Below, in pieces: positions 2,410 to 56,423 of a DNA stretch of 64,000 bases. Origin of the DNA: Firmicutes bacterium ADurb.Bin182 (GTDB lineage Bacteria > Bacillota > Clostridia > Christensenellales > CAG-138). Numbering within the stretch: position 1 is the first letter of the stretch; each line of letters opens with the position of its first letter. The translations under genes were made by a program, and so were the position numbers. The notes beneath the pieces are model-generated. The model had not been told where the DNA came from. It saw only the letters and a list, made by a program, of their open reading frames with translations, and did not search any database. The stretch is taken from contig MWCU01000023.1 of assembly GCA_002070205.1 (NCBI GenBank), positions 6,671 through 70,670 on the forward strand, given 5' to 3'.

Positions 2410-3748
2410 CTTTCATAAATTTCATACATTCATTATTCATGTTTATGGCAGAAGCCACAACAACAAACAGCATCATAACGTGCGCAGATTTAAATATCCT
2501 TCCACTCATAGAATAGAGTATCATACATAAAATAGGGAGAGTATATATGTACATCCGTTTATACTTCTTCATGTCCATTATTAACTCAATAAATAGAATC
2601 ACAGTTATTATTACACCCACCACGCCCCACGCTACATAAACGTCTACTATTGAGTTATGAGGATTCATCATAACTCCAGTTTTCGCTTGCAAATCTTGCA
2701 TGCCAACACCGAAAATTATCTTTAGTGGGTCGTTTGCGAACGCCTCTAAATACTGCTGCGTGATTATGGTTCTGCTTCCCATCGTAACGGTCGATGCGCT
2801 GTCTTGAAACCGGCTAATCATGTTGTTTATTGCTTCTGGCGCTATTGAGTATATAACAATAACTATCAACGCAATCCACAATAGCGTCTTGAGTAGTTTC
2901 TTCATATACTCACGCTGTATACAAAAGCATAACATAATTAACATGCCTATCAGTGCCACAAAAAAAGTGCGCGAGATTGACAAAAGACCTATAAAAAACG
3001 ATGTACACATTAAAACAATAAAGTTCTTTGTATTAATAAATTTCCCGATATACATTGCTATTGATGAAGAGATCGCAATGATCATATGGAAACCGATACT
3101 ATTAGGATTATTGCTCAAGCGATAACCGATAATTTCATCATCAGCAAATGTGTTACCCAATCGCCAATTGTTTTGAATTATGCTGGCAAAGTTTAATGAG
3201 TTCGATTTTAAAGTTAGCGCAACGACAATTACATTTGCAATGATTACAGATATTATGAACGCCATAACCGTATCTGCGTTTAAAACCTTGTACCTTTCTT
3301 TGTCCGAAAAAATTACGAACATGAATACATAAGTGCATGCAAAGGTAATATATGCAGAAAGTGAAAAAGGAGGTATAACGCTGTGCAGTAACTCCATAAG
3401 CATCAACAGTAAGAAGATTATAGATACGCGTGTAAGTTGAACTTTTCTATTTTTGAACAATATTATTAACGCCATCGCGCCTATTATTGTCGAGAACTGA
3501 ACTGCTTGAGCAACAGGAATAAGAGATACTGCATATTTGACTATTGTCTCTTTTTTCGAAGACACTGCAAATAAGATTAGCAATACAGTAATCAGCTGAA
3601 CAGGAATTTGAACAGAAAAAAAGTCACGTAGTAGTATCAGTCCATATAACACACACCAAAATGCAACAAGCTGCCTAGATCCATACTTTGAGGCTGATGC
3701 AGGTATCGGTAAGAGCGTTTCTCTTTCTATGTCGTATTCTTTCAACAT
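2393..3748 (-). CDS. Polytopic membrane protein, probable Wzy-type polysaccharide polymerase / O-antigen-ligase-like
   Basis: 451 aa, about 10 or more hydrophobic helices, very AT-rich. Sits between a GT and a transferase in the glycan operon, where Wzy is expected. No catalytic motif can be verified by eye. Confidence 0.5.
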   Translation of the reverse strand: MLKEYDIERETLLPIPASASKYGSRQLVAFWCVLYGLILLRDFFSVQIPVQLITVLLILFAVSSKKETIVKYAVSLIPVAQAVQFSTIIGAMALIILFKNRKVQLTRVSIIFLLLMLMELLHSVIPPFSLSAYITFACTYVFMFVIFSDKERYKVLNADTVMAFIISVIIANVIVVALTLKSNSLNFASIIQNNWRLGNTFADDEIIGYRLSNNPNSIGFHMIIAISSSIAMYIGKFINTKNFIVLMCTSFFIGLLSISRTFFVALIGMLIMLCFCIQREYMKKLLKTLLWIALIVIVIYSIAPEAINNMISRFQDSASTVTMGSRTIITQQYLEAFANDPLKIIFGVGMQDLQAKTGVMMNPHNSIVDVYVAWGVVGVIITVILFIELIMDMKKYKRMYIYTLPILCMILYSMSGRIFKSAHVMMLFVVVASAINMNNECMKFMKGETHE

Positions 3749-16003: not shown

Positions 16004-17317
16004 TTACAGCCTCCAGTAAATGTAGCCTGCGGCTTCGTATTCAGCCCTATCCAGCAGACCTTTCACATCTACCAGAACCTTCTGACCGTTGCCGAACATT
16101 GCGTCGATCTGTTCCATCTTAAACTCGCTGAACTGTGTATGCGCCACGGCGAGAATAACAGCGTCACAACCGATCACTTCGTCCATTCCGCAGAACTCAA
16201 CGCCGTAGAGCTTCTTAGCTTCAGCCGCGTCTGCCGTGGGGTCGGTGATGAGCGGTTCAATGCCGTATTCACGCAGCTCTTTCACGATGTCGAAAACCTT
16301 AGAGTTTCTCGTATCGGGGCAGTTCTCTTTGAACGTGAAGCCAAGAATAGCTACCTTAGCACCCTTTACAGGCTTTTCAGCTTTGATCAAATTCTTGACC
16401 ACGTTCTCAGCTATGTACTTGCCCATGTCGTCGTTGATACGACGTCCGGACAGTATGACCTGAGAGTGGTAGCCCAGCATTTCAGCCTTGTATGTCAAGT
16501 AATAGGGGTCTACGCCGATGCAATGACCGCCAACGAGTCCGGGGAAGAATTTGAGGAAGTTCCACTTCGTTCCCGCTGCTTCCAGAACGGATTTTGTGTC
16601 GATGCCCATCTTATTGAAGATGATCGACAGCTCGTTCATGAATGCGATATTGATGTCACGCTGGCTGTTTTCGATGACCTTCGCAGCTTCGGCAACCTTG
16701 ATACACGGAGCACGATGAACGCCCGCTTCTACAACTAACTCGTACACTTTCGCCACAGTGTCCAGCGTTTCGGCATCGCAACCGGAAACAATCTTCTTAA
16801 TGGTCTCGAGCCTGTGGACTTTATCGCCGGGGTTGATTCTTTCCGGGCTGTAACCGATCTTGAAGTCCACGCCGCATTTCAACCCAGATTCTTTCTCCAA
16901 AATCGGTACGCAGATGTCTTCAGTAACACCGGGGTAGACCGTGGACTCAAAGACTACGACAGAACCAGCTGTGAGATTCCTACCAAGTATCCTCGATGCA
17001 CCTTCTACAGGGCTCAAATCCGGCGTATGGTCATCGAACACAGGCGTGGGAACGGCAACGATGTGGAACTTGGCGCGACGAAGAGCTGTCTCGTTGGCGG
17101 TGAACTCCACGGTGGTAGCCTTAATCGCCTCATCGCCGACCTCATTCGTCGGGTCAACGCCGTTCTTATAGAGATTGATTTTTGCTTCGTTCAAATCGTA
17201 TCCGATGACGTTGATCTTTTTAGCGAAAGCCACAGCGATTGGCATTCCGACATAACCAAGGCCCACCAGAGACAGGGATTCTTTCTTTTCCACCAGTTGT
17301 TTGTACAGGTCGTTCAT
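16004..17317 (-). CDS. UDP-N-acetyl-hexosamine 6-dehydrogenase (nucleotide-sugar dehydrogenase, TviB/WbpO/Cap5O-like); first gene of the operon
   Basis: LSLVGLGYVGMPIAVAFA (Rossmann), PERINPGD, GLVGGHCIGVDPYYL (catalytic Cys). Confidence 0.85.
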   Translation of the reverse strand: MNDLYKQLVEKKESLSLVGLGYVGMPIAVAFAKKINVIGYDLNEAKINLYKNGVDPTNEVGDEAIKATTVEFTANETALRRAKFHIVAVPTPVFDDHTPDLSPVEGASRILGRNLTAGSVVVFESTVYPGVTEDICVPILEKESGLKCGVDFKIGYSPERINPGDKVHRLETIKKIVSGCDAETLDTVAKVYELVVEAGVHRAPCIKVAEAAKVIENSQRDINIAFMNELSIIFNKMGIDTKSVLEAAGTKWNFLKFFPGLVGGHCIGVDPYYLTYKAEMLGYHSQVILSGRRINDDMGKYIAENVVKNLIKAEKPVKGAKVAILGFTFKENCPDTRNSKVFDIVKELREYGIEPLITDPTADAAEAKKLYGVEFCGMDEVIGCDAVILAVAHTQFSEFKMEQIDAMFGNGQKVLVDVKGLLDRAEYEAAGYIYWRL

Positions 17318-17489
17318 CTTTATATACCGTTCCTTTTTTCGCTGCCGTTTTCCGGTCAGCTTTTGAATATTAGTTTTTCTACAGCCTTTTTATGGCTGTG
17401 GTTATCAATATTTGATATTGCTATTCTCTGACTGTTGTTGTTATCATAAGGCAGTGTACTTTTTCACAGCCCCTCCCGCGCCTCACAAT

Positions 17490-17617
17490 GATATTGCTGA
17501 CATTCGATAGTTGCTGTATGTGGATAGGGAGAAGATGATTTATGCTCTCCACGCTCTCTAAACCAGCTCCATGTGATATTGCCGACATACCAAGGTTGCT
17601 GTATGCGGATAGGGAGA
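17490..17617. repeat. Two 43-bp direct repeats (17490-17532 and 17575-17617, 37/43 identical, 85-bp period) in the operon leader
   Basis: GATATTGCTGACATTCGATAGTTGCTGTATGTGGATAGGGAGA versus GATATTGCCGACATACCAAGGTTGCTGTATGCGGATAGGGAGA, aligned by hand. Confidence 0.8.
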
Positions 17618-17833
17618 GGAAGAAAAATGCCTAATATTGCCATTTTCGACTCTTCCAACCTCATCCCGGTGTGCCAGTGTTCGGGGGTACTAACATACTG
17701 TCGGACTACTTGCTCTAACTTGTGATTTTCCTTTATGCAACTATTATTCATTTCGGGCTTCTTTTATGCATTTTATGGTGCTTTTCTTGCATAAACGGCA
17801 GGATATACTGTATAATTACCCCTCTCCCTATCC
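17607..17833. promoter_or_regulatory. Candidate invertible DNA segment: 13-bp perfect inverted repeat flanking about 200 bp
   Basis: GGATAGGGAGAGG at 17607-17619 and its exact reverse complement CCTCTCCCTATCC at 17821-17833. An imperfect extension (..GCTGT..) continues outward on both arms. Inversion itself is not observable from a single sequence. Confidence 0.35.
17787..17816 (+). promoter_or_regulatory. Near-consensus sigma-A type promoter inside the candidate invertible segment, currently pointing away from the polysaccharide operon
   Basis: TTGCAT (17787-17792), an 18-nt spacer, then TATAAT (17811-17816). It ends 4 nt before the right inverted repeat. Confidence 0.35.
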
Positions 17834-17961
17834 CCTATCAACAGCACTACCTCAACCTGACATTAACCTGCAACAACCTGACATTATATGTGCATATTGC
17901 TCATTTCTACATGCCCGGTTATGTGCATTTTGTACACTCATACTCTCTCAATCAGGCTGCT

Positions 17962-18174
17962 ACATATTGTGGTGGCTGACGCATAAATACACAACATATT
18001 GTGGTTCTTCATTTCTGAAACAACATCACTCAAAATCCGGACAGGATCCCCTCATTTTCGAGATTCGTTCAAAAGGATTGCGAACATTATTCCATATTCT
18101 GCATATAATGTTCGTGTTTTTTGGCATACTGCATGTTGTGGTGCACGACGCATAAACATACAATATATTGTAGC
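17962..18174. repeat. Four copies of a 12-mer (ACATATTGTGGT-like), arranged as two 44-nt modules
   Basis: ACATATTGTGGT at 17962-17973 and 17994-18005, GCATGTTGTGGT at 18131-18142, ATATATTGTAGC at 18163-18174. Spacing within each module is 32 nt. Each module has a GACGCATAAA core between its two copies. Confidence 0.75.
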
Positions 18175-18194
18175 CTCCCCTTTTCTCAACTAGT

Positions 18195-18752
18195 TCACTC
18201 CTCAACTAATCCAATTGTAAAGCTCAGGTTGCCGGAATATGTGCCGGACTGAGTCGGTTTTGCCGCTGGTTGAACCGTTAAAACAACGAAATCTGCCTTT
18301 GTATCAGAGGACACTGCGGACGGCTGGAATCTGTCAATCTCATCTCCGGCTTCTACAATAGTATCACCATATTTTATGGTTAACCCTATTGTCTCCTCAC
18401 CGTTCGTCAAATCTGTGACACCGGCAAGATTACAATACAACTGCCGATTAACCGGAAAATCCGACCATGACGCGATATTTATATCAAGACTGGTTGCTGA
18501 GCCGTCGGAATTCATAGTCAAGCCTGTAGGCACTGAAACAAAATACTGTGTGTTAAAGGCTGGCGTATATGAAAGCGTGACGTTATTTGACGTCTCAGCT
18601 GCCGATGCTGATATTGGAATACCCAAAGCTTCGAGTGCTCCGGACAAATCTAACAGGATGAAGCCTGCGATAAAGCATAGGGCTATGTATGCGGTTAAGA
18701 ACGCATTGATGCAGTGATTAGCTGTGGATCGTTTGCCATCCATGTATCTCAC
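18195..18752 (-). CDS. Hypothetical secreted or membrane-anchored protein (N-terminal TM/signal, beta-rich ectodomain)
   Basis: N-terminal hydrophobic segment AFLTAYIALCFIAGFILL. The C-terminus ends SGTYSGNLSFTIGLVEE, a G-x-Y-x-G-x-L-x-F pattern reminiscent of fimbrial/adhesin beta-sandwich proteins. No family could be assigned. Confidence 0.45.
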   Translation of the reverse strand: MRYMDGKRSTANHCINAFLTAYIALCFIAGFILLDLSGALEALGIPISASAAETSNNVTLSYTPAFNTQYFVSVPTGLTMNSDGSATSLDINIASWSDFPVNRQLYCNLAGVTDLTNGEETIGLTIKYGDTIVEAGDEIDRFQPSAVSSDTKADFVVLTVQPAAKPTQSGTYSGNLSFTIGLVEE

Positions 18753-18797
18753 ATCCTTTCTATGAAATGTTTATTGTTGAACTTGTGATTACTGTGA

Positions 18798-19394
18798 TTA
18801 TTCTACGGGTGCCCATTTACCGTCAGATTTCCTTGTCCAGTCCTTGGCAACATGGAGCTTAACGGGCGTGATTAACGAACCGTAGATATTGCCGAAATCG
18901 TCAACCGGCGTATAAATTATTGTGGCGTCATAATCGCCTGCCTTTAAACCTCTTACCATGTCAACAATTGTCAACATTCGCCCCGGTTTGATGACACTCG
19001 ATTTATAGAGAAGTTCAATGCTTTCATCAGCATTCTCAACTGCTTCTGCATTTCCCAAGTACAGCGTAGCTATCAAACCCTTATCATTTGCGGGGTCGTT
19101 CCACACGGCGAGTTCCTGAGCCGTTGTGTCTGACTTAAAGTAGAGCTGCGAAAAGCAGTTGTGAATGAAGTAACCTTGTTCAACCGTCTTACAATCATAA
19201 TTCTGAAACTCTTTCAAAAACACCGCATCGATTTCCACCGCGTTGGGGTCTTCGAGAAAGGCTTTCACCGTTGTGGACGGTATTGGTTTCTGACCTGAGA
19301 GGAATACTATTATTGCGACTACGAGAAACAAGAGTGCCACTACAAGGATTATGAGTTTTCTCTTATGCTGTTGTAGTATTACCGTGAAGTTCAT
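18798..19394 (-). CDS. Hypothetical membrane-anchored extracytoplasmic protein
   Basis: Single N-terminal TM (LIILVVALLFLVVAIIVFL) followed by a soluble domain of about 160 aa. No recognisable motif. Confidence 0.45.
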   Translation of the reverse strand: MNFTVILQQHKRKLIILVVALLFLVVAIIVFLSGQKPIPSTTVKAFLEDPNAVEIDAVFLKEFQNYDCKTVEQGYFIHNCFSQLYFKSDTTAQELAVWNDPANDKGLIATLYLGNAEAVENADESIELLYKSSVIKPGRMLTIVDMVRGLKAGDYDATIIYTPVDDFGNIYGSLITPVKLHVAKDWTRKSDGKWAPVE

Positions 19395-20161: not shown

Positions 20162-20713
20162 CTATGCCCACTCCGTCAACTCCCCGTCCTTAAGTTCCAT
20201 CCATTTAAAGGACAACCATACATCCTTGCGTGTCTCTCCGATGGCAATCCGTACAAGCGCGCTTCTTCGCTGCCGGTTGATTTTTATGATCTCGCCTTCA
20301 TAATCCAACAACGGGCCGTCGATGATGGTCGTTTTATCTCCCACGAGCATAGCGCGCGAAAGCTTGATGTGTCCATCATGCTTATAGACCCAGTTCGCAA
20401 AATCAAGGTCTTCGCCAAGCAGGGAGTAGGACTTGTCATGCTGCTGTGCATCCCCGGTGTCCGAATAGCCGAGCACTTTGTTGACGCGCTTTGAGCGGCA
20501 AATCAAATCGGGGGCAAGCACTGTATCAGAGTATAAGAAAAGATAGCCGGGAATCAGCGGGTGCGTTTTTACCGTCCATTTCCCATCTTTGTGTTCCTCG
20601 CGGTCAAACACAGGGTAGAGGATCGTCGCCTCGGGCAGCCGTCCGGATAATTCGCGCTTTAAAACCGCTTCGCTTCCTGCGTTGCAGGCAATGCAATAGG
20701 TGAAATTCGGCAT
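20162..20713 (-). CDS. Specialised NusG paralog (LoaP/UpxY-like transcription antiterminator)
   Basis: My preferred start is the ATG at 20713, preceded by GGGGGAAACTGT. It has an NGN-like N-terminus (FTYCIACNAGSEAVLKRELSG...ILYPVF...IPGYLFL) and a KOW-like C-terminus (GDKTTIIDGPLLDYEGEIIKINRQRRSALVRI). It sits at the head of a glycan locus, as UpxY and LoaP genes do. Confidence 0.65.
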   Translation of the reverse strand: MPNFTYCIACNAGSEAVLKRELSGRLPEATILYPVFDREEHKDGKWTVKTHPLIPGYLFLYSDTVLAPDLICRSKRVNKVLGYSDTGDAQQHDKSYSLLGEDLDFANWVYKHDGHIKLSRAMLVGDKTTIIDGPLLDYEGEIIKINRQRRSALVRIAIGETRKDVWLSFKWMELKDGELTEWA

Positions 20714-20860
20714 ACAGTTTCCCCCACCCATACGCGATGTATGGTTGTTGATCATTGTGTACATCGCAAGCGCCCCGTGCACTGACTGTGTCGCCGTGCC
20801 TTTACGATGATTGCGGGTATATCCTCAAGCGCTTTTAGTAAAGCGCATTAGGGCAATTCT

Positions 20861-22000
20861 TTAAGCCGGTTGCACGTCTACAACAACGCCGCTCGCAATC
20901 CGCGAAAAAGGTTTGATCACCGAATGCTTTTTCACCGTTGCGGAGCAGTTGATGTGGCAGTCTTCTTGAACGACAACATTGACGTCGATCAGCGCACCCG
21001 AACTTACGATGCAGCCCTTACCGATACGCGCATTAGCGCTGATGATGGCTTTTGCCTCCACGATGGTGCCTGCGTCGACGGAGGCGCTCGGGCTCACCGT
21101 CGCCATGGGGTGAATAAGCGTCGGCAGGATAAAACCCGCTTTTTCAAGCCGCTCAATCCACATAGCTCGAAGTTCGCAATTCCCAAAAGACGGAAGCGCG
21201 ATAGGGTAGAGCTCCACATATCGTTTATAGTTCTCGCAAGTATCGATAGCGGATTTGATGTCCGTATTGTCGTCCAGAAATGCAATTTTATGGAACACGC
21301 CCAGCGCCTCGGCGGTTTCCTTGACCACTTGCCCTTGGCTTCCCGCGCCAAGGATGAGCAAATTCATCCGTTTGCCCGAATCGGGGTTAGGCACGAGCAG
21401 CGGCTCGTAATCTAGGCTGTATTTTTCGAGCTTGTCGATTCTTTGGATATATGCCTCAAGATATTGGCCAAATTTGCGCTGCATCTCACTGAGCTGCTTC
21501 ACGCCTACAAACTCGCTGATGGTATAAAGGTCGAGCCCGCACGCAAGGCAGCGGCGAATGAAGGCTTCTCTAAGCATGCCGGTTGAAATCTTATCGACGA
21601 GTTGATATTTCGTGTTGATTGAAGCCAGCTGGTTTTGGAGCATATGCGCCTTGGGCGCGTCCTGCTCGCCGCTGATGATATAGCAGTGCTTATTTGGGTA
21701 AAGATGCGTGTTTTTTTGAAGCAAACGATACACATGCGGCGGAATCGGAATCGTCCGCGCTGCGTCGGAGGAAATGATTTTATATTGCCGACCGGCTTGT
21801 CCGTTGGTGCCAAGCGTACGCGCAAGCGCATTCCTGATTGTCAGCGTTTTAGCCTTAAAGTCGATGTCCTTAATCTTAACGGCGGATGCCTCCGCCACGC
21901 TTAACCCCATATGCAGGCAAAGGTATGCGGCAAGCTTTCTGGGTTCGATGTCTTCCGTCAAGGCTTTTTCCAGCACCATGCATTGGCTTTCAGACAGCAT
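20861..22000 (-). CDS. Fusion protein: degenerate tyrosine-recombinase-like domain (aa 1 to about 200) plus NeuD/PglD/EpsM-type sugar N/O-acetyltransferase (aa about 208-379)
   Basis: The N-terminal half follows integrase catalytic-domain topology (LCLHMGLSVAEASAVKIKDIDFKAKTLTI ... TIPIPPHVYRLL ... MLREAFIRRCLACGLDLYTISEFVGVKQL...F). The Arg-I, His and Tyr positions are substituted. The C-terminal half has LLILGAGSQGQVVKETAEALG (NeuD Rossmann-like) followed by hexapeptide repeats. Confidence 0.6.
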   Translation of the reverse strand: MLSESQCMVLEKALTEDIEPRKLAAYLCLHMGLSVAEASAVKIKDIDFKAKTLTIRNALARTLGTNGQAGRQYKIISSDAARTIPIPPHVYRLLQKNTHLYPNKHCYIISGEQDAPKAHMLQNQLASINTKYQLVDKISTGMLREAFIRRCLACGLDLYTISEFVGVKQLSEMQRKFGQYLEAYIQRIDKLEKYSLDYEPLLVPNPDSGKRMNLLILGAGSQGQVVKETAEALGVFHKIAFLDDNTDIKSAIDTCENYKRYVELYPIALPSFGNCELRAMWIERLEKAGFILPTLIHPMATVSPSASVDAGTIVEAKAIISANARIGKGCIVSSGALIDVNVVVQEDCHINCSATVKKHSVIKPFSRIASGVVVDVQPA

Positions 22001-22359: not shown

Positions 22360-23568
22360 TTAGCGTGTTCTTTCTAATACAACTCTCTGCTCAAATTCCT
22401 CCACCGACAAGCTGCCCGCGTCTACCTCTTTAAGCAATCCCTTGGCGTTGTCCATCCACGCGTAATATTCCTCATGCGGGTAAACCTGCGGCGCACGCTC
22501 ACAGCGCATATGATAGGTGTTGCGCAGCCTGCTGTACAGCTTCCTTGCAGCATCGGCATTGCGTTTGTTGAAGTATTTTTCCGTTGGCGCGACTTCCTTG
22601 CAGGTTTTCCCCTCTGAGTTTTCCACAACGCGGTCACAATAGAGCGATGCAGAGGAAAACGGCAAGAAATAGCGGCCGCAATACTCGCATTTGCGCACGG
22701 CAAGCTCGTTCATGCACATGTGCCTGAATTCGGCAAAAACCAAAGCCCGCACATCCTCGCTCGTGTAAAACATATGCGCAAAGAACGTACAGCGTTTTAG
22801 CTCGGCAATAAACTCTGGCGTGATTTTCTCCTCGGGATATTTGAATTCGCCCTCGCGCAGGATACGCTGTTCTGCGCCCAACAACTTATTCTTGACGATA
22901 AGCCTTTCTGTTCGGACAAGCGCTTCAAAGCAGCTAACTTGCATCAAATAAAAGCGCTGTGGCGGCTTCATGTCGGCGAATTCGCTGTCTTTATCCAGCG
23001 AGAACGCCATCATCTCGAGCATGTCGGCTTTGAAAGCGAGCATGTTTTCCATGAGCTCAATAAGATGAACGGAAAAAGCATTCGTAGCTTCTACCAACGA
23101 CCAATCTTTCACGGGCGAACTGAACGCGTCCCCGCTTGATTCGGCAAAGAGCTCCATTCGCTCAACCGATTCCGGCGTACTGGGATAATTGCGAAATAAA
23201 TCAAAAGTGACGTCATGCACCAAATCGTAGTTTTCGGGCAAAACAGAATAGACCGCATCGCATAGCTTCTCGTCAATAATCTGCCCAAGGAAAGGGTGCA
23301 AAGCGTTTAGATTCTTCATAAGAAGCTTATAATACGTCGCCGCAATCATATAGGAGCGGCTTTCGTCGTGCACATTAAAATATGTTTCTCTGTCAATATT
23401 CTCGATATAGCATTTCCGATTCAGATCATTGGCCTCATCATGAAGCTTCATCCAATCAACATCAAGAAAGGCAAATAGCAAACTCCCGATGCCGTATTCT
23501 TCAACCTGTCCGCCGCTCACGATATATTCGTTCTTCCCGCTGAAGCTTAGATATTTCGTCTGATCCAT
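22360..23568 (-). CDS. Hypothetical protein with a C-terminal Cys-rich (zinc-binding-like) region; mobile-element cargo or maintenance gene
   Basis: 402 aa in coding-like composition. Contains VRKCEYCGRYFLPFSSASLYCDRVVENSEGKTCKE (C-x2-C ... C ... C). No enzymatic motif recognised. Confidence 0.5.
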   Translation of the reverse strand: MDQTKYLSFSGKNEYIVSGGQVEEYGIGSLLFAFLDVDWMKLHDEANDLNRKCYIENIDRETYFNVHDESRSYMIAATYYKLLMKNLNALHPFLGQIIDEKLCDAVYSVLPENYDLVHDVTFDLFRNYPSTPESVERMELFAESSGDAFSSPVKDWSLVEATNAFSVHLIELMENMLAFKADMLEMMAFSLDKDSEFADMKPPQRFYLMQVSCFEALVRTERLIVKNKLLGAEQRILREGEFKYPEEKITPEFIAELKRCTFFAHMFYTSEDVRALVFAEFRHMCMNELAVRKCEYCGRYFLPFSSASLYCDRVVENSEGKTCKEVAPTEKYFNKRNADAARKLYSRLRNTYHMRCERAPQVYPHEEYYAWMDNAKGLLKEVDAGSLSVEEFEQRVVLERTR

Positions 23569-23924
23569 ACGCTGCTCCGTGTTTTATCAATTTTTGCCTA
23601 ACGTGTGTGGTTTTGTGTGCGTATTTGTGTTTTATGTATTTATGTGATTAATACTTTAACACATATTGACCGTTACTTCAAGTTGTTTTATTCTAATGTA
23701 GTGTTCTATCATCCACGTAACAGGACAAAAGAACACGACAATTAAATACAAGCGCTACGGCAACAGATCATGAAACTTCCGTCCAGTCACAGTCCGAGTG
23801 GTAACCAATCCATCGCAGGCAATGAGGGCGGCCCGCACAGAGTGGGGGAGGTGAAAATCCTATGGGCGGCAGCCGTCGTAGCGCGAGCAAAAACAAAACG
23901 AGAAACAAAGAAAGGAATGTTCAA

Positions 23925-24128
23925 ATGAAAGACTATACGAATTTTGATTCCCTGCCCATCACCCTCAGCGTGAGCGATGTGGCAAACGTGCTCGGCATCT
24001 CCCGCGTGGGTGCGTACAACCTTTGTCATTCTAAAGGCTTCCCGTCCATGCGGATCGGCAAGCGGATACTGATTCCCAAAGACCGTTTCATCCAATGGCT
24101 CGAAGCGCAGTCCGCTGAATTGGCATGA
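23925..24128 (+). CDS. Excisionase / MerR-superfamily helix-turn-helix DNA-binding protein
   Basis: LSVSDVANVLGISRVGAYNLCHSKGFPSMRIGKRILIPKDRFIQWLE is the classic HTH_17/Xis-type pattern. I chose the start at the ATG after AAAGGAA; the ORF-track start is 23862. Confidence 0.65.
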   Translation: MKDYTNFDSLPITLSVSDVANVLGISRVGAYNLCHSKGFPSMRIGKRILIPKDRFIQWLEAQSAELA

Positions 24129-24220
24129 AGTCAGCCAATTTGGTTTTGTGCATTTACAGGCTCCGTAGCCGGTGAAACGATTGCACAGGCTCAAAACTGG
24201 GGTTAAGAGAGGGGGAATAT

Positions 24221-25108
24221 ATGACGCACATCAAACTCGGTATCGATAACGGCAACTACAACACCAAATCTTCGGAGCGAATGCTCTACGCGTCGGGCTT
24301 CACGCAGAGCGAAAAAAGCTTTATCACAAACGACATGCAACTTTTCTTCGAAGGAACCTATTATGCCCTCGGCGGCAAAAGGATGAGCTTTCAGCAGAAC
24401 AAGACAAAAGAGCCGGACACCTTCATCCTGTCGCTGCCCGCCGTCGCCCATGCCATGCGCCTGACAAGCGTACAGGAAGCGGATATCACATTGGGCGTCG
24501 GGCTTCCGATTGACATCTATGGCACACAGAAAAACATGTTCCGTGATTACTTTCTGCGCGGCGAGGTCGCCTTTGAATATGAAGACATATCCTACCGCTG
24601 CCGAATCGCGGATTGTAAGGTATTCGCGCAAGGCCACGCGGCGCTTTGCAAGCATTATGGCTCTCTGCGGCAATACACGACCATCACGCTCGTGGACATC
24701 GGCGGGTACACGGTGGACATTCTTAGCTTGCGGGACTTCAAGGCCGATCGCGGAAGCTGCGTGAGCCTTCGCATGGGCACAATCACGCTGTTTAACGCCA
24801 TTCGTGGCGAGCTTCAGCAGGCGAACATCATCCTGACCGACGAACTGATTGCCGACGCCATACGTGGGCGCATCCAGCATGCCGATAAGGAGCGGATCAT
24901 ATCGGTTGCGGAGCGGCATGTGCAGCACTACTTCCGCGAACTGCTCAACGCGCTAAGAGAGCGTGGCCTCGATTTGAAGCTGCCCACCGTTTTTGCGGGC
25001 GGCGGCGCGGAACTGCTGGGCGACCGGCTCATCACGCCGGAGGTCGCGACGGTCGATGTTCTTGACCGCTTCGCAAACGCCGAGGGCTATAAGATGCTGC
25101 TCGGGTGA
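24221..25108 (+). CDS. ParM/StbA-family actin-like segregation ATPase
   Basis: The actin-fold phosphate and adenosine motifs appear in order: LGIDNGNYNTK, LVDIGGYTVDI, VFAGGGAELL. A strong RBS (GAGAGGGGGAATAT) precedes the ATG. Confidence 0.7.
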   Translation: MTHIKLGIDNGNYNTKSSERMLYASGFTQSEKSFITNDMQLFFEGTYYALGGKRMSFQQNKTKEPDTFILSLPAVAHAMRLTSVQEADITLGVGLPIDIYGTQKNMFRDYFLRGEVAFEYEDISYRCRIADCKVFAQGHAALCKHYGSLRQYTTITLVDIGGYTVDILSLRDFKADRGSCVSLRMGTITLFNAIRGELQQANIILTDELIADAIRGRIQHADKERIISVAERHVQHYFRELLNALRERGLDLKLPTVFAGGGAELLGDRLITPEVATVDVLDRFANAEGYKMLLG

Positions 25109-25395
25109 ACGCCATGCGGGAAAGGCGTTACCTCACATTCGACATGAACGATCCGCGCCACAGGCAGGCGCTTGCTCTTCTTTCGGCCCGGTCTTCAAAG
25201 CAGCGAAGCGAATACATCATATCCTGCATTCTAAAGGCGGAACAGGAAGTTGAGCTGAAAGAAGTAGTACACGCGGCGGTGCTCGATGCGCTGAAAGGCG
25301 TTTCGCTGACGGAACGAACAGAGCGGCAGAAAGATACAGTTGAAAGTGTCACCGAGTTGCCCGGCGCGTTGCTGTCCATGCTGGACGAAATTTAA
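25105..25395 (+). CDS. Small putative DNA-binding protein (possible ParR-like adaptor, ribbon-helix-helix-like N-terminus)
   Basis: Its start overlaps the parM-like stop (GTGA). RRYLTFDMNDPRHRQALALLSARSSKQRSEYIISCIL has a beta-strand-helix-helix pattern. The functional call rests mainly on position. Confidence 0.35.
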   Translation: MNAMRERRYLTFDMNDPRHRQALALLSARSSKQRSEYIISCILKAEQEVELKEVVHAAVLDALKGVSLTERTERQKDTVESVTELPGALLSMLDEI

Positions 25396-25613
25396 ACCAT
25401 GATGGTTCAGTAAAACGGCGGTAGCACGGGGAAATGCACCATGACGGTGCATTTGATTCGTTTGCCGTACGGCAAACGTTCCGCTGTGCGGACTTGTCCG
25501 CACACGCAGCTGCGGGCGCACCCGGGCCTGCAGCTGCGAAGCCTCGCAGAGCCCACATGACACTTTGCAGCTTGCTGAAAGTGTCATAGTGGGTCATACG
25601 CTTTCGCAAAGCG
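25395..25613 (+). promoter_or_regulatory. oriT-like region: seven inverted repeats or palindromes packed into about 220 bp directly upstream of the relaxase gene
   Basis: AACCAT-G-ATGGTT 25395-25407. AAATGCACC/GGTGCATTT 25432-25454. GTTTGCCGTACGGCAAAC 25460-25477. GTGCGGAC-TT-GTCCGCAC 25486-25503. GCAGCTGC twice, at 25507 and 25530. ATGACACTTT/AAAGTGTCAT 25557-25587. CGCTTT-CGC-AAAGCG 25599-25613. Confidence 0.4.
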
Positions 25614-25780
25614 GATGAAACGCGCCCCCCGGGTTATTTCGAAAGGAAGGTGGTCATATAGCAAGAAACGACGGCGTAGACCGCACCGTTGTACGAAACA
25701 CCGCTTACCGGAAAGCCGCGGTCGGCATTCGTGAACGGCACAACGAGCGCAAAAACGAAAGCTACGCCAATCCGGATGTT

Positions 25781-26890
25781 ATGCCGGAGCGGAGCCATCT
25801 CAACGTTCATTTCAAGCAATGCGGCACCACCTATGCGCAAGCCTTTGACAGCCTGGTGGAAGAAGGAACGATCTCCACGCGCGGCTTGAAGCCGGACGCA
25901 AAGGTAATCGACGAAATGATATTCGATGTGAACACGGCTTATTTTGACCGCCACGGCGGGTACGAATATGCAAGGGAATTTTTTCAACACGCCTATGAAA
26001 TGGCGGTGGAAGAAGCGGGCTCAGAGCAGTACATCCTCTCGGCGGTCATGCACGCGGATGAGCGAAACCGCAGCCTGTCGGATAGCCTCCGGCGCGATGT
26101 GTTCCACTATCACCTCCATGTCGTTTACATTCCCGTTGTGGAAAAGGAAATCAAATGGTCAAAGCGCTGCAAGGATGTGGCGCTTGTAGGCACGGTCAGG
26201 GAGGTTATCCGGCAGGTCAGCCACAGCAAAAAGTGGAAGTCCGAACGCATCACGGACGAACACGGCAATGCTCGACTGATCCCGTCTTACAGCCTTTTGC
26301 AGGACCGCTTCTTCGAGCATATGAAAAATGCCGGATACAGCAATATTGAGCGCGGCGAAAAGCACAGCGCGGAAGTGAATCTCACGGTTGCGGCGTTTAA
26401 GGCGAGGCAAGAACAAGCGAGAGCGCAGGACCTTGAACGCAGCAATAGCCTCGCTGAGAGGGAGCTGAAAAAGCTCAAAACGGAACTTAGCGCGACTATA
26501 AAAACATCGAGCACCATCCGAGAAATTGAAAGCATGGGGAGCAAAACGCTGTTTGGGAAGGTCGAGCTGTCTCCGAAAGAGCATAGCGCCCTCACCGCGC
26601 TTGCAAAGGAGGGCTTGACGTCCCGCGTTAAGATCTCCGGCTTAGAGCGTCAGCTTAATGAGCTCAACCGGCGCTTTTGCCAGCTCAAGGACAGCTATCA
26701 TGAGCTCTATGCCAATACGCGGGAATATTTCCGGGCGGTAAAGCTTGCCCCGCAGGCGGTCAGAGACTTTTTCACGCAGCTGTTCGCCCGCGAGGCACAA
26801 GAGCGCGAAGCAAAAAAACAGGCGCAGCGCGGCAAAACAATCGAACGCAGAAAAAACAGAACAGGAGCATCTCATGAAGAAATATTGTGA
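25781..26890 (+). CDS. MobV-family (Mob_Pre) relaxase; the first canonical start lies downstream of the conserved N-terminal motif (see findings)
   Basis: PERSHLN, HADE...FHYHLHVVYIP (H-x-D-E ... H-x-H metal motif) and a coiled-coil C-terminus. An in-frame upstream extension encodes ...VVRNTAYRKAAVGIRERHNER. Confidence 0.7.
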   Translation: MPERSHLNVHFKQCGTTYAQAFDSLVEEGTISTRGLKPDAKVIDEMIFDVNTAYFDRHGGYEYAREFFQHAYEMAVEEAGSEQYILSAVMHADERNRSLSDSLRRDVFHYHLHVVYIPVVEKEIKWSKRCKDVALVGTVREVIRQVSHSKKWKSERITDEHGNARLIPSYSLLQDRFFEHMKNAGYSNIERGEKHSAEVNLTVAAFKARQEQARAQDLERSNSLAERELKKLKTELSATIKTSSTIREIESMGSKTLFGKVELSPKEHSALTALAKEGLTSRVKISGLERQLNELNRRFCQLKDSYHELYANTREYFRAVKLAPQAVRDFFTQLFAREAQEREAKKQAQRGKTIERRKNRTGASHEEIL

Positions 26891-26950
26891 GCAGAGAAAC
26901 AAAAATGGGCTGCCGAACGGCGAAGCCTGTTCTTGCTGGAGGGCGCGCCA

Positions 26951-28108
26951 ATGGCGAGGATGAAGAAACGCGATGATGGCCTGTATCAGCGCTCTATTAC
27001 AATTGGGCGCAACAGTGACGGTAAGCCGCTGCGCAAAATCATCTATGGGCGAACGCAAAAAGAGCTGGAGGCAAAGGTTGCTGAGTATCAGGAGCAGTTA
27101 AAATACGGCATGCTGCCTGCAAACGAAAATGTCACGTTTGGCGAGATGGCGAAAATCCTCTGCGACGATTATAAACCCATGGTATCCGAGGGCGTTCGCA
27201 AGCGGTATGTCACCACCTGTGAAAAGCATTTGAAGGAGCTGAACAACATACGGCTCCGCGACCTCAAAGCGGCGCATTTGCAGAGCCTCATCAACCGCCT
27301 TGCCCAGGCGGGCTATGCGACAAAATCGCTCAGCGGCATAAAGCAGGTCGCGTCTCAGGTGATGCGCCTTGCGATGGACAACGACATCGTAATGCGCAAC
27401 GTGTTTGAACGGATCAAGATTCCGTCCATCGAAGCGGAAAAGCGAACCCCCTTGACCGAGAAGCAGATCGAGCTGGTAAACGAGCACTGCCTGGATCACC
27501 GCATGGGGCTTCCCGTTATGCTCATGCTGTACGCCGGGCTGCGGCGCGGCGAGCTGATGGCGCTTCGCTGGTCGCACATCGATCTTGAAAACCGCGTCAT
27601 TCATGTACGCGAAGCATGGGCGTTTGAGGCCACAAACGTGGGCCATCGAAAAGCGCCTAAAACCTCGTCAGGCAAGCGCGACATTCCCATACTGGATAAT
27701 CTGTACAGCGTCCTGGTGCGCGTGAAGATGGACGCAAAGAGCTCCCTTGTCTGCCCCACGGCCGAAGGTGTGGAAATGACCAATATCGCGTGGCGGCGGG
27801 CGTGGGAGAGCTATATGCACCATTTGAACATCGCCGCCGGCGGTCGGGTCGGAAGCCGTTCCCGCCCTAAGATAACCGCCATCGAGCCGTTTACTGCCCA
27901 TCAGCTCAGGCACACCTTCATCACCCTTTGCCATGAGGCAGGTATCGATGTGAAGGTCACACAGGACATGGCGGGCCATGCCGATATCCGAACGACCCTT
28001 GGCATCTACACGCACCTCACAAAGGTAAAAAAAGAAGAAGCAGTAGATACATTAAACGCGCATATTGCCGCAAAAAGTAAGACCAAACGGGACGAAATGG
28101 AGCGGTAA
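26951..28108 (+). CDS. int: Tyrosine-type site-specific integrase
   Basis: Complete catalytic set: AGLRRGELMALRWSHIDL (Arg-I), HQLRHTF (His/Arg-II), GHADIRTTLGIYTH (His, Tyr). The start is chosen after GGAGGG; the ORF-track TTG is at 26933. Confidence 0.9.
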   Translation: MARMKKRDDGLYQRSITIGRNSDGKPLRKIIYGRTQKELEAKVAEYQEQLKYGMLPANENVTFGEMAKILCDDYKPMVSEGVRKRYVTTCEKHLKELNNIRLRDLKAAHLQSLINRLAQAGYATKSLSGIKQVASQVMRLAMDNDIVMRNVFERIKIPSIEAEKRTPLTEKQIELVNEHCLDHRMGLPVMLMLYAGLRRGELMALRWSHIDLENRVIHVREAWAFEATNVGHRKAPKTSSGKRDIPILDNLYSVLVRVKMDAKSSLVCPTAEGVEMTNIAWRRAWESYMHHLNIAAGGRVGSRSRPKITAIEPFTAHQLRHTFITLCHEAGIDVKVTQDMAGHADIRTTLGIYTHLTKVKKEEAVDTLNAHIAAKSKTKRDEMER

Positions 28109-28119
28109 GTACTGGTTGG

Positions 28120-28150
28120 AAACAGTAAGAAACAGTAAGGAAACAGTAAA
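28120..28150 (+). repeat. Three tandem copies of AAACAGTAA(G/A) between the integrase stop and tRNA-Asn; possible integrase arm-type sites
   Basis: AAACAGTAAG at 28120-28129, AAACAGTAAG at 28130-28139, AAACAGTAAA at 28141-28150. Partial inverted copies (CTGTTT) occur at 28154-28159 and 28189-28194. Confidence 0.6.
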
Positions 28151-28202
28151 TCGCTGTTTTCAAGGCAAAAAGCACCGTTTCTGACCCCTGTTTCAGGGTA
28201 AG

Positions 28203-28239
28203 AAAAAGTCCCGAAACACCTTGTTTTCGGGACTTTTTT
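28203..28239. terminator. Bidirectional rho-independent terminator
   Basis: AAAAA-GTCCCGAAA(C)-loop-(G)TTTCGGGAC-TTTTTT gives a 9-10 bp GC-containing stem flanked by an A-run and a T-run. It lies just after the tRNA-Asn 3' end (minus strand) and downstream of int (plus strand). Confidence 0.65.
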
Positions 28240-28242
28240 CCT

Positions 28243-28318
28243 TGGCTCCCCCTGCTGGACTCGAACCAGCGACACTGCGGTTAACAGCCGCATGCTCTAC
28301 CGACTGAGCTAAGGAGGA
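28243..28318 (-). tRNA. tRNA-Asn (anticodon GTT), 76 nt with encoded CCA
   Basis: Folded by hand from TCCTCCT-TA-GCTC-AGTCGGTA-GAGC-A-TGCGG-CTGTTAA-CCGCA-GTGTC-GCTGG-TTCGAGT-CCAGC-AGGGGGA-G-CCA. All four stems pair, with one G-U in the acceptor. The anticodon loop is CT-GTT-AA. Confidence 0.9.
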
Positions 28319-31496: not shown

Positions 31497-32408
31497 ATGA
31501 TGAAAACCACATTGGCAATAATGGCGGCGGGTCTCGGCAGCCGCTATGGCGGGATAAAGCAAATCGAGCCTTTAGGGCCAAACGGCGAGATACTTATGGA
31601 CTACGCCGTATACGATTCGCAAAAGGCGGGCTTCAATAAAGTCGTGCTGATCATAAAGAAGGAGATGCTTCATGATTTTCGCGAAGTCATCGGAAAGCGG
31701 ATCGAAAAGAAGATAGAGACCGAATATGTGTTTCAGTCTTTTGAAACCCTGCCATCGTTTTATAAAGTCCCAGCGGGAAGAATAAAGCCGTTCGGTACCG
31801 CGCAAGCGCTTTTAAGCGCCAAAAATGCGATCAATGAGCCGTTTGCGATAATAAATGCCGATGATTTCTATGGCGGAAGCGCTTTCTCCTCGATGCATTC
31901 CTTTCTGGCGGATCGTCCGCAAGGCGAAAGGCAAGCCGCAATGGCAGGTTATTATCTCGAAAATACGATTTCGGAGCACGGGCACGTAACTCGCGGCGTC
32001 TGTGACGTTAAGGACGGGAATTTGATCGCAATAAAAGAAACGTTCAAGATAATGCGGTTTCCGGACGGCACCGTAAGGGATGTTCACGATGCCCCCGAAG
32101 GCGTCATCCTTGACCCGAGATCCGTCGTATCCATGAACTTCTGGGGTTTTGATACGTCCGTATTCGCCTTTGCAGAGGATTATTTCAACGGATTCTTAAA
32201 AGCGCTTCCGGCGGACGACATCAAGTCCGAATGCCTTCTGCCTTCTATGGTCGGCCATCTTATTCGGAATGAGCGTTTCTCGGTCCGCGTTCTTTCGACG
32301 GGCTCCAAATGGTTCGGCGTTACGTATAAGGAGGACGGCGAAAAAGTAAAAACAAAGCTGAGATTCCTGCACGCGAGCGGGGAATACCCCGACCTTGTAA
32401 ACGGATGA
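31497..32408 (+). CDS. Sugar-phosphate nucleotidyltransferase family protein
   Basis: LAIMAAGLGSRYGGIKQIEPLGP (G-x-G-x-R signature), FGTAQAL, INADDFYG. The start is placed at MMKTT after GGAGAA. Confidence 0.7.
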   Translation: MMKTTLAIMAAGLGSRYGGIKQIEPLGPNGEILMDYAVYDSQKAGFNKVVLIIKKEMLHDFREVIGKRIEKKIETEYVFQSFETLPSFYKVPAGRIKPFGTAQALLSAKNAINEPFAIINADDFYGGSAFSSMHSFLADRPQGERQAAMAGYYLENTISEHGHVTRGVCDVKDGNLIAIKETFKIMRFPDGTVRDVHDAPEGVILDPRSVVSMNFWGFDTSVFAFAEDYFNGFLKALPADDIKSECLLPSMVGHLIRNERFSVRVLSTGSKWFGVTYKEDGEKVKTKLRFLHASGEYPDLVNG

Positions 32409-47281: not shown

Positions 47282-47544
47282 TGCTGCATACGGAGCTTAT
47301 ATTAAAAAGCGAAAAGGGTCTTGACGCCGGATTCGCCGCGAAGCTTGCTGACGCGATGAGCGGCTTTTCATCCCGCATCCTTATCGAAAAAAACAATAAA
47401 AAAGTCAACGCCAAATCCGTTATGGGAATTCTGTCTCTCGCTGTCAAGAAGGACGAGCCTGTTCGTTTCATAATCATGGGCGAGGATGAGCAGGAAGCTT
47501 TAAAAGCGCTTTCTTCATTGGCTGAGGGAGGTTTCATCAGTTGA
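47278..47544 (+). CDS. HPr-family protein, Crh-like (lacks the His15 phosphorylation site, retains Ser46)
   Basis: KGLDAGFAA aligns to HPr SGIHARPAT (His to Asp). KKVNAKSVMGILSLAV and GEDEQEALKAL closely parallel B. subtilis Crh. Confidence 0.8.
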   Translation: MMLHTELILKSEKGLDAGFAAKLADAMSGFSSRILIEKNNKKVNAKSVMGILSLAVKKDEPVRFIIMGEDEQEALKALSSLAEGGFIS

Positions 47545-56412: not shown

Positions 56413-56423
56413 TGGCTATCCTC

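What the first reader, a model, noticed from the sequence alone, without database searches (positions are those of the whole stretch)
17490..17886. Candidate invertible promoter (phase-variation switch) in the leader of the polysaccharide operon
Seen in the sequence:
- A perfect 13-bp inverted repeat: GGATAGGGAGAGG at 17607-17619 and CCTCTCCCTATCC at 17821-17833. An imperfect outward extension follows on both arms.
- The repeat brackets about 200 bp. Just inside the right arm lies a near-consensus promoter: TTGCAT, an 18-nt spacer, then TATAAT (17787-17816).
- That promoter is on the plus strand, pointing away from the minus-strand operon that starts at 17317.

Inference:
- Inversion between the arms would place the -10 element at about 17624-17629 on the minus strand, firing into the operon. 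The present orientation would then be OFF.
- The left arm belongs to a 43-bp unit that is duplicated 85 bp further left (17490-17532, also containing GGATAGGGAGA). This offers a second possible recombination partner.
- Beyond the right arm sit two CAACCTGACATTA copies (17853-17865 and 17874-17886).

Established knowledge: invertible promoters control capsule loci in Bacteroides and several surface structures in Clostridioides difficile, and their recombinases are often encoded elsewhere in the genome.
Basis: partly seen in the sequence, partly recalled or inferred. Interest (0 to 1): 0.7.

Follow-up and report, generated by a model that had tools for sequence, protein, structure and literature searches.

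The report
Inverted repeat in polysaccharide-operon leader
A 13-bp inverted repeat around a 201-bp promoter-like segment upstream of a polysaccharide operon is real and strongly conserved, but no public assembly or read set shows it flipped, so it is more likely a fixed regulatory leader than a working phase-variation switch.

Summary
GGATAGGGAGAGG (17607-17619) and its complement (17821-17833) bracket 201 bp that carry TTGCAT-18-TATAAT on the + strand. A 57-nt unit is duplicated 85 bp to the left, and CAACCTGACATTA occurs twice to the right.

The repeat is functional, not chance. In at least 8 diverged variants (interior 56-69% identical) the distal arm is invariant, and the arms extend to 21-26 bp in relatives. 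The left arm is the end of a ~50-bp unit present in 2-5 direct copies; the right arm is one partial inverted copy.

Inversion is unsupported. All 18 independent contigs have the same orientation. Contigs from 17 DNA-type and 11 RNA runs show no strand-changing joint. RNA contigs run colinearly from upstream, through both arms, into the operon. The leader RNA is more abundant than the flanking genes, and the first gene is expressed.

My best reading (0.45) is a fixed, bidirectionally promoter-like 5' leader of an operon that has a LoaP-like NusG paralog upstream. A rarely flipping inverton remains possible (0.3), because only assembled contigs could be examined, not raw reads. No intact recombinase is linked to the element across its contexts.

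The parts
17607..17619 (.). Operon-proximal arm (GGATAGGGAGAGG on +). It is the end of repeat unit 1.
   Evidence: 9/13 columns invariant across variants
17821..17833 (.). Distal arm (CCTCTCCCTATCC on +).
   Evidence: 13/13 invariant in five full variants
17834..17848 (.). Outer extension of the distal arm ('box b', reverse complement AGTGCTGTTGATAGG). Homology with loci that have unrelated upstream flanks (L001, L006) begins exactly here.
17594..17606 (.). Outer extension of the proximal arm (GGTTGCTGTATGC). In relatives the two extensions match, giving inverted repeats of 21 nt (L006) or 24/26 nt (L005/L009).
17620..17820 (.). 201-bp segment between the arms (191 bp in some relatives). Four TGCATAA-type boxes lie at about 17729-17739, 17760-17771, 17787-17796 and 17808-17818.
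17691..17707 (.). Most conserved interior box, TAACATACTGTCGGACT. It always lies 131 nt from the distal arm.
17787..17816 (+). Plus-strand promoter-like site TTGCAT-18-TATAAT, pointing away from the operon. The hexamers and the 18-nt spacer length are conserved; the spacer sequence is not.
17812..17841 (-). Sense-strand promoter-like site TTGATA-18-AATTAT. Its -35 lies in box b, its spacer is the distal arm, and its -10 overlaps the + strand TATAAT by 5 bp (bidirectional geometry).
17574..17630 (.). Repeat unit 1 (GATATTGC ... GTTGCTGTATGC GGATAGGGAGAGG).
   Evidence: 2-5 such units in relatives
17489..17545 (.). Repeat unit 2 (81% identical to unit 1).
17410..17445 (.). Degenerate third unit (keeps GATATTGC and TGTTGTTG; the arm is lost).
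   Evidence: (family D8)
17883..17911 (-). Sense-strand promoter-like site P_A, TGTAGA-17-TATAAT, with a predicted start near 17876, upstream of the repeat-bounded segment.
   Evidence: The RNA contig 17571-17874 in run X16 has almost no RNA to its right.
17853..17886 (.). Two exact CAACCTGACATTA copies. The right one overlaps the -10 of P_A.
17891..17935 (+). Plus-strand terminator-like hairpin with a U-rich tail, the first of three downstream of the + promoter.
17960..18012 (+). Second plus-strand terminator-like hairpin.
18080..18123 (+). Third and best plus-strand terminator-like hairpin (11-bp stem, then GUUUUUUG).
17379..17402 (-). Conserved hairpin (ACAGCC / GGCTGT) just upstream of the ribosome-binding site of the first gene.
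16004..17317 (-). First gene of the operon, a UDP-sugar dehydrogenase.
18195..18743 (-). 182-aa gene. It forms part of a conserved cassette directly upstream of the leader.
18798..19394 (-). 198-aa membrane-anchored protein gene, part of the same cassette.
20162..20782 (-). LoaP-like NusG paralog.
   Evidence: NF033641, E 1.4e-21, 77 bits, below the 125-bit cut-off

Best explanation
The 13-bp repeat is the core of a longer element, GATGTTGT-(3-5 nt)-GGATAGGGAGAGG. Leaders of this operon family carry 2-5 direct copies of a ~50-bp unit ending in that element. They also carry one partial copy in the opposite orientation about 200 bp further upstream. That pair is the 'inverted repeat'. I read the region as a fixed-orientation promoter and 5' leader, not a DNA switch.

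Shown:
- The orientation is the same everywhere it has been assembled.
- RNA contigs run colinearly from upstream of the distal arm, through both arms, toward the first gene.
- The leader RNA is 1.3- to 13-fold deeper than the flanking genes. In one variant it has a reproducible end about 185 nt before the first gene.
- A LoaP-like NusG paralog lies upstream.

Inferred:
- Transcription toward the operon starts upstream of, or at, the distal arm. The candidates are P_A (17911-17883) and TTGATA-18-AATTAT (17841-17812).
- The + strand TTGCAT-18-TATAAT is the divergent half of a bidirectional promoter with overlapping -10 elements. Its short transcripts are stopped by the + strand hairpins at 17891-18123.
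- Most sense transcripts end inside the leader.
- The C-rich repeat units, and the G-rich distal arm that can pair with any of them over 13-26 bp, are the cis elements at which elongation is controlled. The NusG paralog probably takes part.
For: Orientation:
- Identical in 18 independent contigs and at least 8 variants. There are 27 native and 0 inverted junctions in all held sequences.
- No strand-changing joint in contigs of 17 DNA-type and 11 RNA runs.

RNA:
- The L005-type leader contig 2772-3479 has depth 86.5 / 15.8 / 22.3 in runs X25 / X29 / X30. The first gene has 10.7 / 4-6 / 7.7 and the upstream genes 6-10.
- The same end at L005:2771-2772 appears in independent studies, once with an adaptor attached.
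- The window-type RNA contig 17571-17874 has depth 10.6 and nearly nothing to its right, and the first gene has 6.3. This fits the predicted start of P_A.

Sequence features:
- The repeat unit recurs 2-5 times in direct orientation, and its motifs are conserved even in copies that have no inverted partner.
- A sense-strand -35/-10 pair straddling the distal arm is conserved, and it overlaps the + strand -10 by 5 bp.
- A LoaP-like gene lies upstream.
- The only recombinase-like domain near the element lacks the box-I catalytic arginine (GLS in place of GLR).
Against: - The strand of the RNA is unknown, because only unstranded assembled contigs were available. Depths are means per contig, so start sites are not mapped.
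- No UNCG hairpin of the known LoaP type is present. No intrinsic terminator is found on the sense strand.
- RNAalifold finds no convincing covariation (covariation term +3.2 kcal/mol, six sequences).
- An outward promoter 4 bp from one arm, an interior of constant length, arms shared by several loci, and + strand terminators in two unrelated flanks form exactly the design expected of an invertible promoter parked OFF.
Confidence: 0.45

Rival explanations
1. The region is a true invertible promoter whose ON form is rare or conditional. A recombinase encoded elsewhere in the genome exchanges the 13-26-bp arms. This turns TTGCAT-18-TATAAT toward the operon. In the parked orientation its transcripts are stopped by the + strand terminators. 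Several polysaccharide loci share the same arms, as in Bacteroides, so each locus is OFF in most cells and assemblies show only OFF.
For: - The arms are the best-conserved part of the region (13/13 against 41% for the interior). They extend to 21-26 bp in relatives.
- The interior length is constant at 191 or 201 bp.
- The outward -35/-10 pair has a fixed 18-nt spacer of variable sequence in all variants, including L031.
- Plus-strand terminators follow the distal arm in two unrelated flanks. In L006 one begins 5 nt after the arm.
- The same arms occur at the head of several different polysaccharide loci.
- Break points between contexts fall at the arms (17848/17849 in L001; 17607 in a contig of run X8).
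- Transcripts from an ON promoter would start inside the arm, so RNA contigs could not reveal them.
Against: - Zero of 18 contigs and zero of 28 read sets show the other orientation.
- The interior itself is transcribed in the assembled orientation, at a depth equal to or above that of the first gene.
- No intact recombinase is linked to the element in any of at least 5 contexts.
- Known invertons do not carry 2-5 further direct copies of one arm.
Confidence: 0.3
2. The arms and units are DNA operators for a sequence-specific protein. Binding at the distal arm, which lies between the -35 and -10 of the sense promoter and over the start of the + promoter, together with binding at the downstream units, would loop or block the region and set the operon's expression.
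For: - The units are conserved as primary sequence in three boxes (GGCAATATCAC, ACAACATC, CCTCTCCCTATCC) and have no conserved hairpin.
- The distal arm coincides with the spacer of a promoter-like site.
- The TGCATAA boxes occur as two direct pairs in opposite orientation.
Against: No candidate DNA-binding protein is shared by all contexts. Nothing tested here separates this reading from an RNA-level role.
Confidence: 0.12
3. The + strand promoter makes a short regulatory RNA, about 45-300 nt long. It has a C/U-rich 5' end (the arm sequence) and an intrinsic terminator. The inverted repeat is incidental to this small-RNA gene.
For: - The + promoter is conserved and + strand terminators follow it in unrelated flanks.
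- Only the arm and box b are shared between the predicted RNAs of the window type and the L006 type.
- Modules to the right of the arm are about twice as deep in RNA as the upstream genes.
Against: - In run X16, RNA stops about 40 nt to the right of the arm rather than at a terminator.
- In run X25 the contig to the right of the arm is much shallower than the one to the left (32 against 86).
- The strand is unknown.
Confidence: 0.08

Closest known systems
Bacteroides capsular-polysaccharide invertible promoters (Mpi-dependent, followed by upxY/upxZ)
   Same: A segment of about 200 bp bounded by inverted repeats sits at the head of polysaccharide operons. A promoter lies next to one repeat. The repeats are shared by several loci in one organism, and a NusG paralog is encoded in the locus.
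   Different: Inversion was not observed here. The organism is a Bacillota member. The NusG paralog is LoaP-like and lies upstream of the element, not downstream. The arms bear no resemblance to the Mpi site. One arm is repeated 2-5 times in direct orientation. The comparison with Bacteroides rests on my own knowledge and on the abstract of PMC11685472.
Clostridioides difficile RecV switches (cwpV, flgB, cmrRST)
   Same: These also occur in a clostridial lineage. They are inverted-repeat-bounded segments of about 150-200 bp lying in a 5' leader downstream of a promoter, so that control can act after initiation. The recombinase is encoded elsewhere.
   Different: No second orientation was found here. 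Neither strand of the interior carries a terminator. The comparison rests on my own knowledge.
LoaP-dependent antitermination leaders (dfn/mln of Bacillus velezensis)
   Same: A LoaP-like gene lies next to a long biosynthetic operon. The 5' leader is long, and most of its RNA ends before the first gene.
   Different: The defining UNCG hairpin is absent from the sense leader, as are intrinsic terminators on that strand. The LoaP match is below the curated cut-off. The features of the dfn leader are taken from PMC12691694.
RfaH ops / JUMPStart elements of enterobacterial polysaccharide operons
   Same: A short conserved element, sometimes repeated, lies in the leader of polysaccharide operons that are served by a NusG paralog.
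   Different: There is no sequence similarity. The units here are about 50 bp long, and one copy is inverted. The comparison rests on my own knowledge.
Bidirectional bacterial promoters with overlapping -10 elements
   Same: The + strand TATAAT (17811-17816) and the - strand AATTAT (17817-17812) overlap by 5 bp. Each has its own -35 at an 18-nt spacing.
   Different: The start sites are not mapped here. The geometry rule is from my own knowledge of published work on divergent transcription.

Membership tests
Invertible promoter (inverton) | Inverted repeats flank a short segment. | tested here: met
   The arms are a perfect 13 nt, and 21-26 nt in relatives. The interior is 191 or 201 bp.
Invertible promoter (inverton) | A promoter lies inside the segment and faces one repeat. 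| tested here: inconclusive
   A conserved TTGCAT-18-(T/C)ATA(A/T)T lies 4 bp from the distal arm. It is a consensus match only, and a sense-strand site overlaps it. No start site has been mapped.
Invertible promoter (inverton) | Both orientations exist in populations. | tested here: not met
   All 18 contigs have one orientation, and 28 read sets show no strand-changing joint. Sensitivity is limited, because assembled contigs drop minor forms.
Invertible promoter (inverton) | A site-specific recombinase acts on the repeats. | tested here: inconclusive
   No intact recombinase is linked to the element across contexts. The integrase-like domain at 20861-22000 lacks the box-I arginine. An island integrase at 26933-28108 sits next to a tRNA gene. 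A recombinase acting in trans cannot be excluded.
LoaP antitermination leader | A LoaP gene is associated with the operon. | tested here: inconclusive
   The best NCBIfam hit is antiterm_LoaP, E 1.4e-21, but 77 bits is below the 125-bit cut-off. The gene is absent from the other upstream contexts of the same leader.
LoaP antitermination leader | A UNCG-type RNA hairpin lies in the leader. | tested here: not met
   The sense leader has none in four variants, and only one, non-conserved, hairpin in L018.
LoaP antitermination leader | Intrinsic terminator(s) lie in the leader, to be read through. | tested here: not met
   The window, L009 and most other variants have no sense-strand hairpin with a U-tail. 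An RNA end exists at L005:2771-2772 but has no terminator shape.
Known RNA families (Rfam 15) | A covariance-model match. | tested here: not met
   Only noise matches with E above 0.2 were found in 17250-18250.

The most novel reading that the evidence does not exclude
This is a Bacillota counterpart of the Bacteroides capsule system. A family of invertible promoters with shared 26-bp arms heads several polysaccharide loci in one uncultured wastewater and digester bacterium, working together with a LoaP-type NusG paralog. Each locus is OFF in most cells. The 2-5 extra direct copies of one arm would offer alternative partners, giving nested inversions or deletions that change the leader length.
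Probability: 0.3. Interest if true: 0.7.

Novelty: new variant of a known kind. Interest (0 to 1): 0.45.

Why it matters
If the fixed-leader reading is right, this is an undescribed cis-regulatory architecture for polysaccharide operons that have a NusG paralog upstream. It has repeated ~50-bp units, one inverted partial copy, and an abundant leader RNA that mostly ends early. It does not use the only known LoaP recognition hairpin, so it would widen what is known about how such paralogs are targeted.

If the element does invert, it would show that Bacillota and Bacteroidota evolved the same two-layer capsule control independently. Either way, the locus is a good target for raw-read analysis. 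It is common in wastewater, activated-sludge and digester metagenomes and is transcribed there.

Tried and rejected
- **Genome and other collections.** A scan of species-representative genomes for the repeat pair found nothing. A protein-guided scan found a single contig that ends before the leader. The plasmid collection and viral contigs gave no match.
- **Rfam.** Nothing was found at gathering thresholds or at permissive thresholds.
- **RNA structure.** The arms pair in every minimum-free-energy fold, but that follows trivially from a long inverted repeat. RNAalifold on six variants gives a positive (unfavourable) covariation term and only four weakly compensatory pairs. The RNA-helix idea is therefore neither supported nor excluded.
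- **LoaP hairpin.** No conserved UNCG hairpin was found.
- **Shared promoter family.** I asked whether the distal arm belongs to the same promoter family as the TTGAGA-16-TATATT site after the 182-aa gene. The similarity is not significant (z 1.7 and 3.2, against 15-23 between modules A and B), so I dropped the idea.
- **Integrase-like domain at 20861-22000.** As a local invertase it is rejected. The Pfam score is below threshold. The N-terminal DNA-binding domain is missing, and the box-I arginine is replaced by serine.
- **Homologs of the first gene in other taxa.** They lack this leader, so they gave no further comparison points.
- **Literature.** Searches for the 13-mer and for Ruminococcus invertons found nothing relevant.
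- **Promoter scanning.** Consensus scans give many hits on both strands of this A/T-rich region and cannot decide direction.
- I repeated it on the equivalent locus L005.

Full report
**What is there.** The reported features are all present at the stated coordinates.
- The perfect 13-nt inverted repeat lies at 17607-17619 / 17821-17833 with 201 nt between the arms.
- A duplicated unit lies to the left. It is 57 nt rather than 43, 81% identical, with 85-nt spacing.
- Two exact CAACCTGACATTA copies lie to the right.
- TTGCAT-18-TATAAT sits on the + strand, 4 bp inside the right arm.
- The 13-mer occurs in the window only at these sites, plus a one-mismatch copy in the second unit.

A 13-mer inverted pair within 500 nt is not remarkable window-wide. 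I found three, against 0.62 expected, and 30% of shuffles have at least one. The -35 hexamer matches the consensus at only 3 of 6 positions. The evidence that the repeat matters therefore has to come from comparison with relatives.

**Context.** The region is the 877-bp gap (17318-18194) between two parts of a minus-strand gene array.
- Downstream lies a polysaccharide operon: a UDP-sugar dehydrogenase, an epimerase, aminotransferases, a priming sugar transferase, glycosyltransferases and a Wzy-like polymerase.
- Upstream lie two small genes of unknown function (182 and 198 aa), a LoaP-like NusG paralog (best NCBIfam hit antiterm_LoaP, E 1.4e-21, below cut-off), and a gene that fuses a degenerate integrase-like domain to a PglD-type acetyltransferase.
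- Further on are a ParM-like gene, a Mob_Pre relaxase and a tyrosine integrase next to a tRNA gene. The locus therefore sits in or beside an integrated island.
- The rest of the window is ordinary chromosome, with DnaE, PFK, MurB and WhiA.
- One MAG carrying the cassette is labelled uncultured Ruminococcus sp.. A close homolog of the first gene is labelled Bacilli bacterium. I therefore place the organism only in Bacillota.
- The sequence is common in wastewater, activated-sludge and digester metagenomes.

**Relatives.** I fetched the same leader from 17 further independent contigs. They came from an exact scan for the repeat pair in metagenome contigs and from exact-protein look-ups of the neighbouring genes. 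At least eight sequence variants exist, counting two seen only as contigs of sequencing runs.
- The interiors are 56-69% identical between types, and 41% of interior columns are invariant. The distal arm is invariant at 13/13 and the proximal arm at 9/13.
- In relatives the arms are longer: 21 nt perfect in L006 and L020, and 24 of 26 in the commonest type.
- Homology between loci with unrelated upstream flanks begins exactly 15 nt outside the distal arm.
- The interior is always 191 or 201 bp long. A fully conserved box, GACAGTATGTTA, always lies 131 nt from the distal arm.

The inverted repeat is therefore a selected feature and not a chance match.

The proximal arm is the end of a ~50-bp unit made of GGCAATATCAC, a variable 10 nt, ACAACATC and CCTCTCCCTATCC (read on the operon strand). 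This unit occurs 2-5 times in direct orientation along the leader. The distal arm is a single partial copy, the last 26-28 nt, in the opposite orientation.
- Copies that have no inverted partner keep the same motifs.
- Unit number is polymorphic in natural populations. Contigs show an exact 85-bp skip and several 'goes back' joints.
- The two modules between the distal arm and the 182-aa gene are themselves homologous repeats. One of them is duplicated in the commonest variant.

**Does it invert?**
- All 18 contigs have the interior in the same orientation relative to the operon.
- A pattern search of everything held found 27 native and no inverted junctions.
- I laid the contigs of 17 DNA-type and 11 RNA runs on the region. 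No strand-changing joint appeared at either arm, although the tool did place pieces on opposite strands where the arm itself matched.

Two cautions apply.
- These runs are available only as assembled contigs, which drop minor forms. An orientation present in fewer than roughly a fifth of cells could be missed.
- If several loci share one invertase and each is ON in a minority of cells, as in Bacteroides, assemblies would show OFF nearly everywhere. With an 80:20 bias, eight variants would all agree about one time in five.

The absence is therefore evidence against frequent inversion. It is not proof against rare inversion.

**Transcription.** Metatranscriptome contigs cover the region in its assembled arrangement.
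- For the commonest variant, one contig runs from just outside the distal arm, through the interior and the proximal arm, into the units (L005:2772-3479). Its depth is 86.5, 15.8 and 22.3 in three runs. The first gene has 10.7, 4-6 and 7.7, and the upstream genes have 6-10.
- Its end at 2771-2772 recurs in another study, with a sequencing adaptor attached. That suggests a discrete RNA end about 185 nt before the first gene.
- For the window's own variant, run X16 has an RNA contig at 17571-17874 (depth 10.6) with almost nothing to its right. The first gene has depth 6.3.
- That boundary fits a sense-strand site TGTAGA-17-TATAAT (17911-17883), with a predicted start near 17876, which lies outside the repeat-bounded segment.
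- A second sense-strand site, TTGATA-18-AATTAT (17841-17812), straddles the distal arm. Its -10 overlaps the + strand TATAAT by 5 bp, which is the geometry of bidirectional promoters.

Limits on these data:
- The contigs carry no strand information.
- Depths are means per contig.
- Transcripts from a flipped promoter would start inside the arm and would carry no diagnostic junction.

The data show that the assembled orientation is not silent toward the operon. They do not map start sites.

**Points in favour of the inverton reading.**
- The outward -35/-10 pair is conserved in all variants. The spacer keeps its 18-nt length but varies in sequence, which is the pattern of a real promoter.
- Terminator-like hairpins with U-tails occur almost only on the + strand to the right of the distal arm. 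There are three in the window type, and in the unrelated L006 flank a good one starts 5 nt after the arm.
- Break points between genomic contexts fall at the arms.
- These are what one expects of a promoter parked facing away from its operon. They are also what one expects of the divergent half of a bidirectional promoter that must not run antisense into the upstream genes.

**Points against a local recombinase, and other tests.**
- The integrase-like domain at 20861-22000 scores below the Pfam threshold.
- It has no N-terminal DNA-binding domain.
- It has serine where the first catalytic arginine should be.
- The other upstream contexts of the same leader have no recombinase. One context (L001) has a large serine recombinase 2.3 kb away, belonging to what looks like an inserted element.
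- The leader has no UNCG hairpin of the kind LoaP binds in Bacillus (PMC12691694), no Rfam match, and no convincing covariation.

**Verdict.**
- The interpretation as a phase-variation switch caught in the OFF state is not borne out by any data I could reach. I put it at about 0.3.
- My preferred reading, at about 0.45, is a fixed promoter and 5' leader built from repeated units. It produces an abundant, mostly prematurely ended leader RNA. The arms and units are the cis elements of elongation control, or of protein binding, and a LoaP-like factor lies nearby.
- Raw-read or long-read analysis of the many samples that carry this locus would settle the question quickly.

Noticed in passing
window 18195-19394; loci L009-L031: The 198-aa and 182-aa genes plus the leader form a cassette. 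It is found with identical protein sequences behind at least five different upstream contexts, and each time it lies directly after a truncated gene (fragments of PglD_N, Bac_transf or DegT). The 198-aa protein has only one other cluster (81% identical) among 5.8 billion proteins. A relative of the 182-aa protein has a weak CS1-fimbrial Pfam hit.
   Followed up: partly
window 20861-22000 (-): A 379-aa protein fuses a degenerate tyrosine-recombinase catalytic domain to a PglD/NeuD-type sugar acetyltransferase. The recombinase domain has no N-terminal domain and has GLS instead of GLR at box I. The same fusion is called in the NCBI MAG GCA_022706985.1.
   Followed up: partly
window 22360-28318: These look like remnants of an integrative mobilisable element next to a tRNA gene (28246-28318). 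It comprises a tyrosine integrase (26933-28108), a Mob_Pre relaxase (25781-26890), a ParM-like actin (24221-25108), a pemK RNA motif (23767-23865) and a DUF6076 protein. GC content is lower to the left of about 24000, so the polysaccharide locus may belong to the island.
   Followed up: no
L001:1-3470 against window 17848/17849: One metagenome contig is 100% identical to the window from the operon up to 17848, which is 15 nt outside the distal arm. Beyond that it continues into unrelated DNA that carries a large serine recombinase and an HTH gene. The same junction appears in contigs of several runs (X2, X3, X8, X10, X18).
   Followed up: partly
window 17488-17620; runs X1, X4, X8, X10, X18: The number of units is polymorphic in natural samples. 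Contigs show an exact 85-bp skip (17488 to 17574) and several 'goes back' joints of 52-130 nt.
   Followed up: partly
window 18019-18179; L005:3450-3777: The 161-bp module that holds the best + strand terminator hairpin is present in one or two extra tandem copies (89% identical) in the commonest variant. These copies lie between the distal arm and module A. A degenerate arm-like sequence sits at the junction.
   Followed up: partly
L005:2771-2772: A reproducible contig end lies inside the leader, about 185 nt before the first gene. It appears in an RNA run of 2017 and, with an adaptor attached, in a run of 2025. It is possibly a discrete 3' end or processing site of the leader RNA.
   Followed up: partly
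window 54979-62982 (-): A BrxL-type Lon-like protease (BREX) lies next to a 703-aa protein and a 1411-aa protein with almost no family matches. This is likely a defence island.
   Followed up: no
window 31801-32210 and 47224-47507: The window's two other perfect 13-mer inverted pairs are built on self-palindromic, low-complexity words (AAGCGCTT, GCTTTTAAAGC). The first lies inside a nucleotidyl-transferase gene and the second between whiA and dnaE. They look like chance matches.
   Followed up: partly
L008: The only other metagenome hit to the repeat-pair pattern is an unrelated GC-rich contig in which the 13-mers are part of a palindrome of about 80 nt.
   Followed up: no
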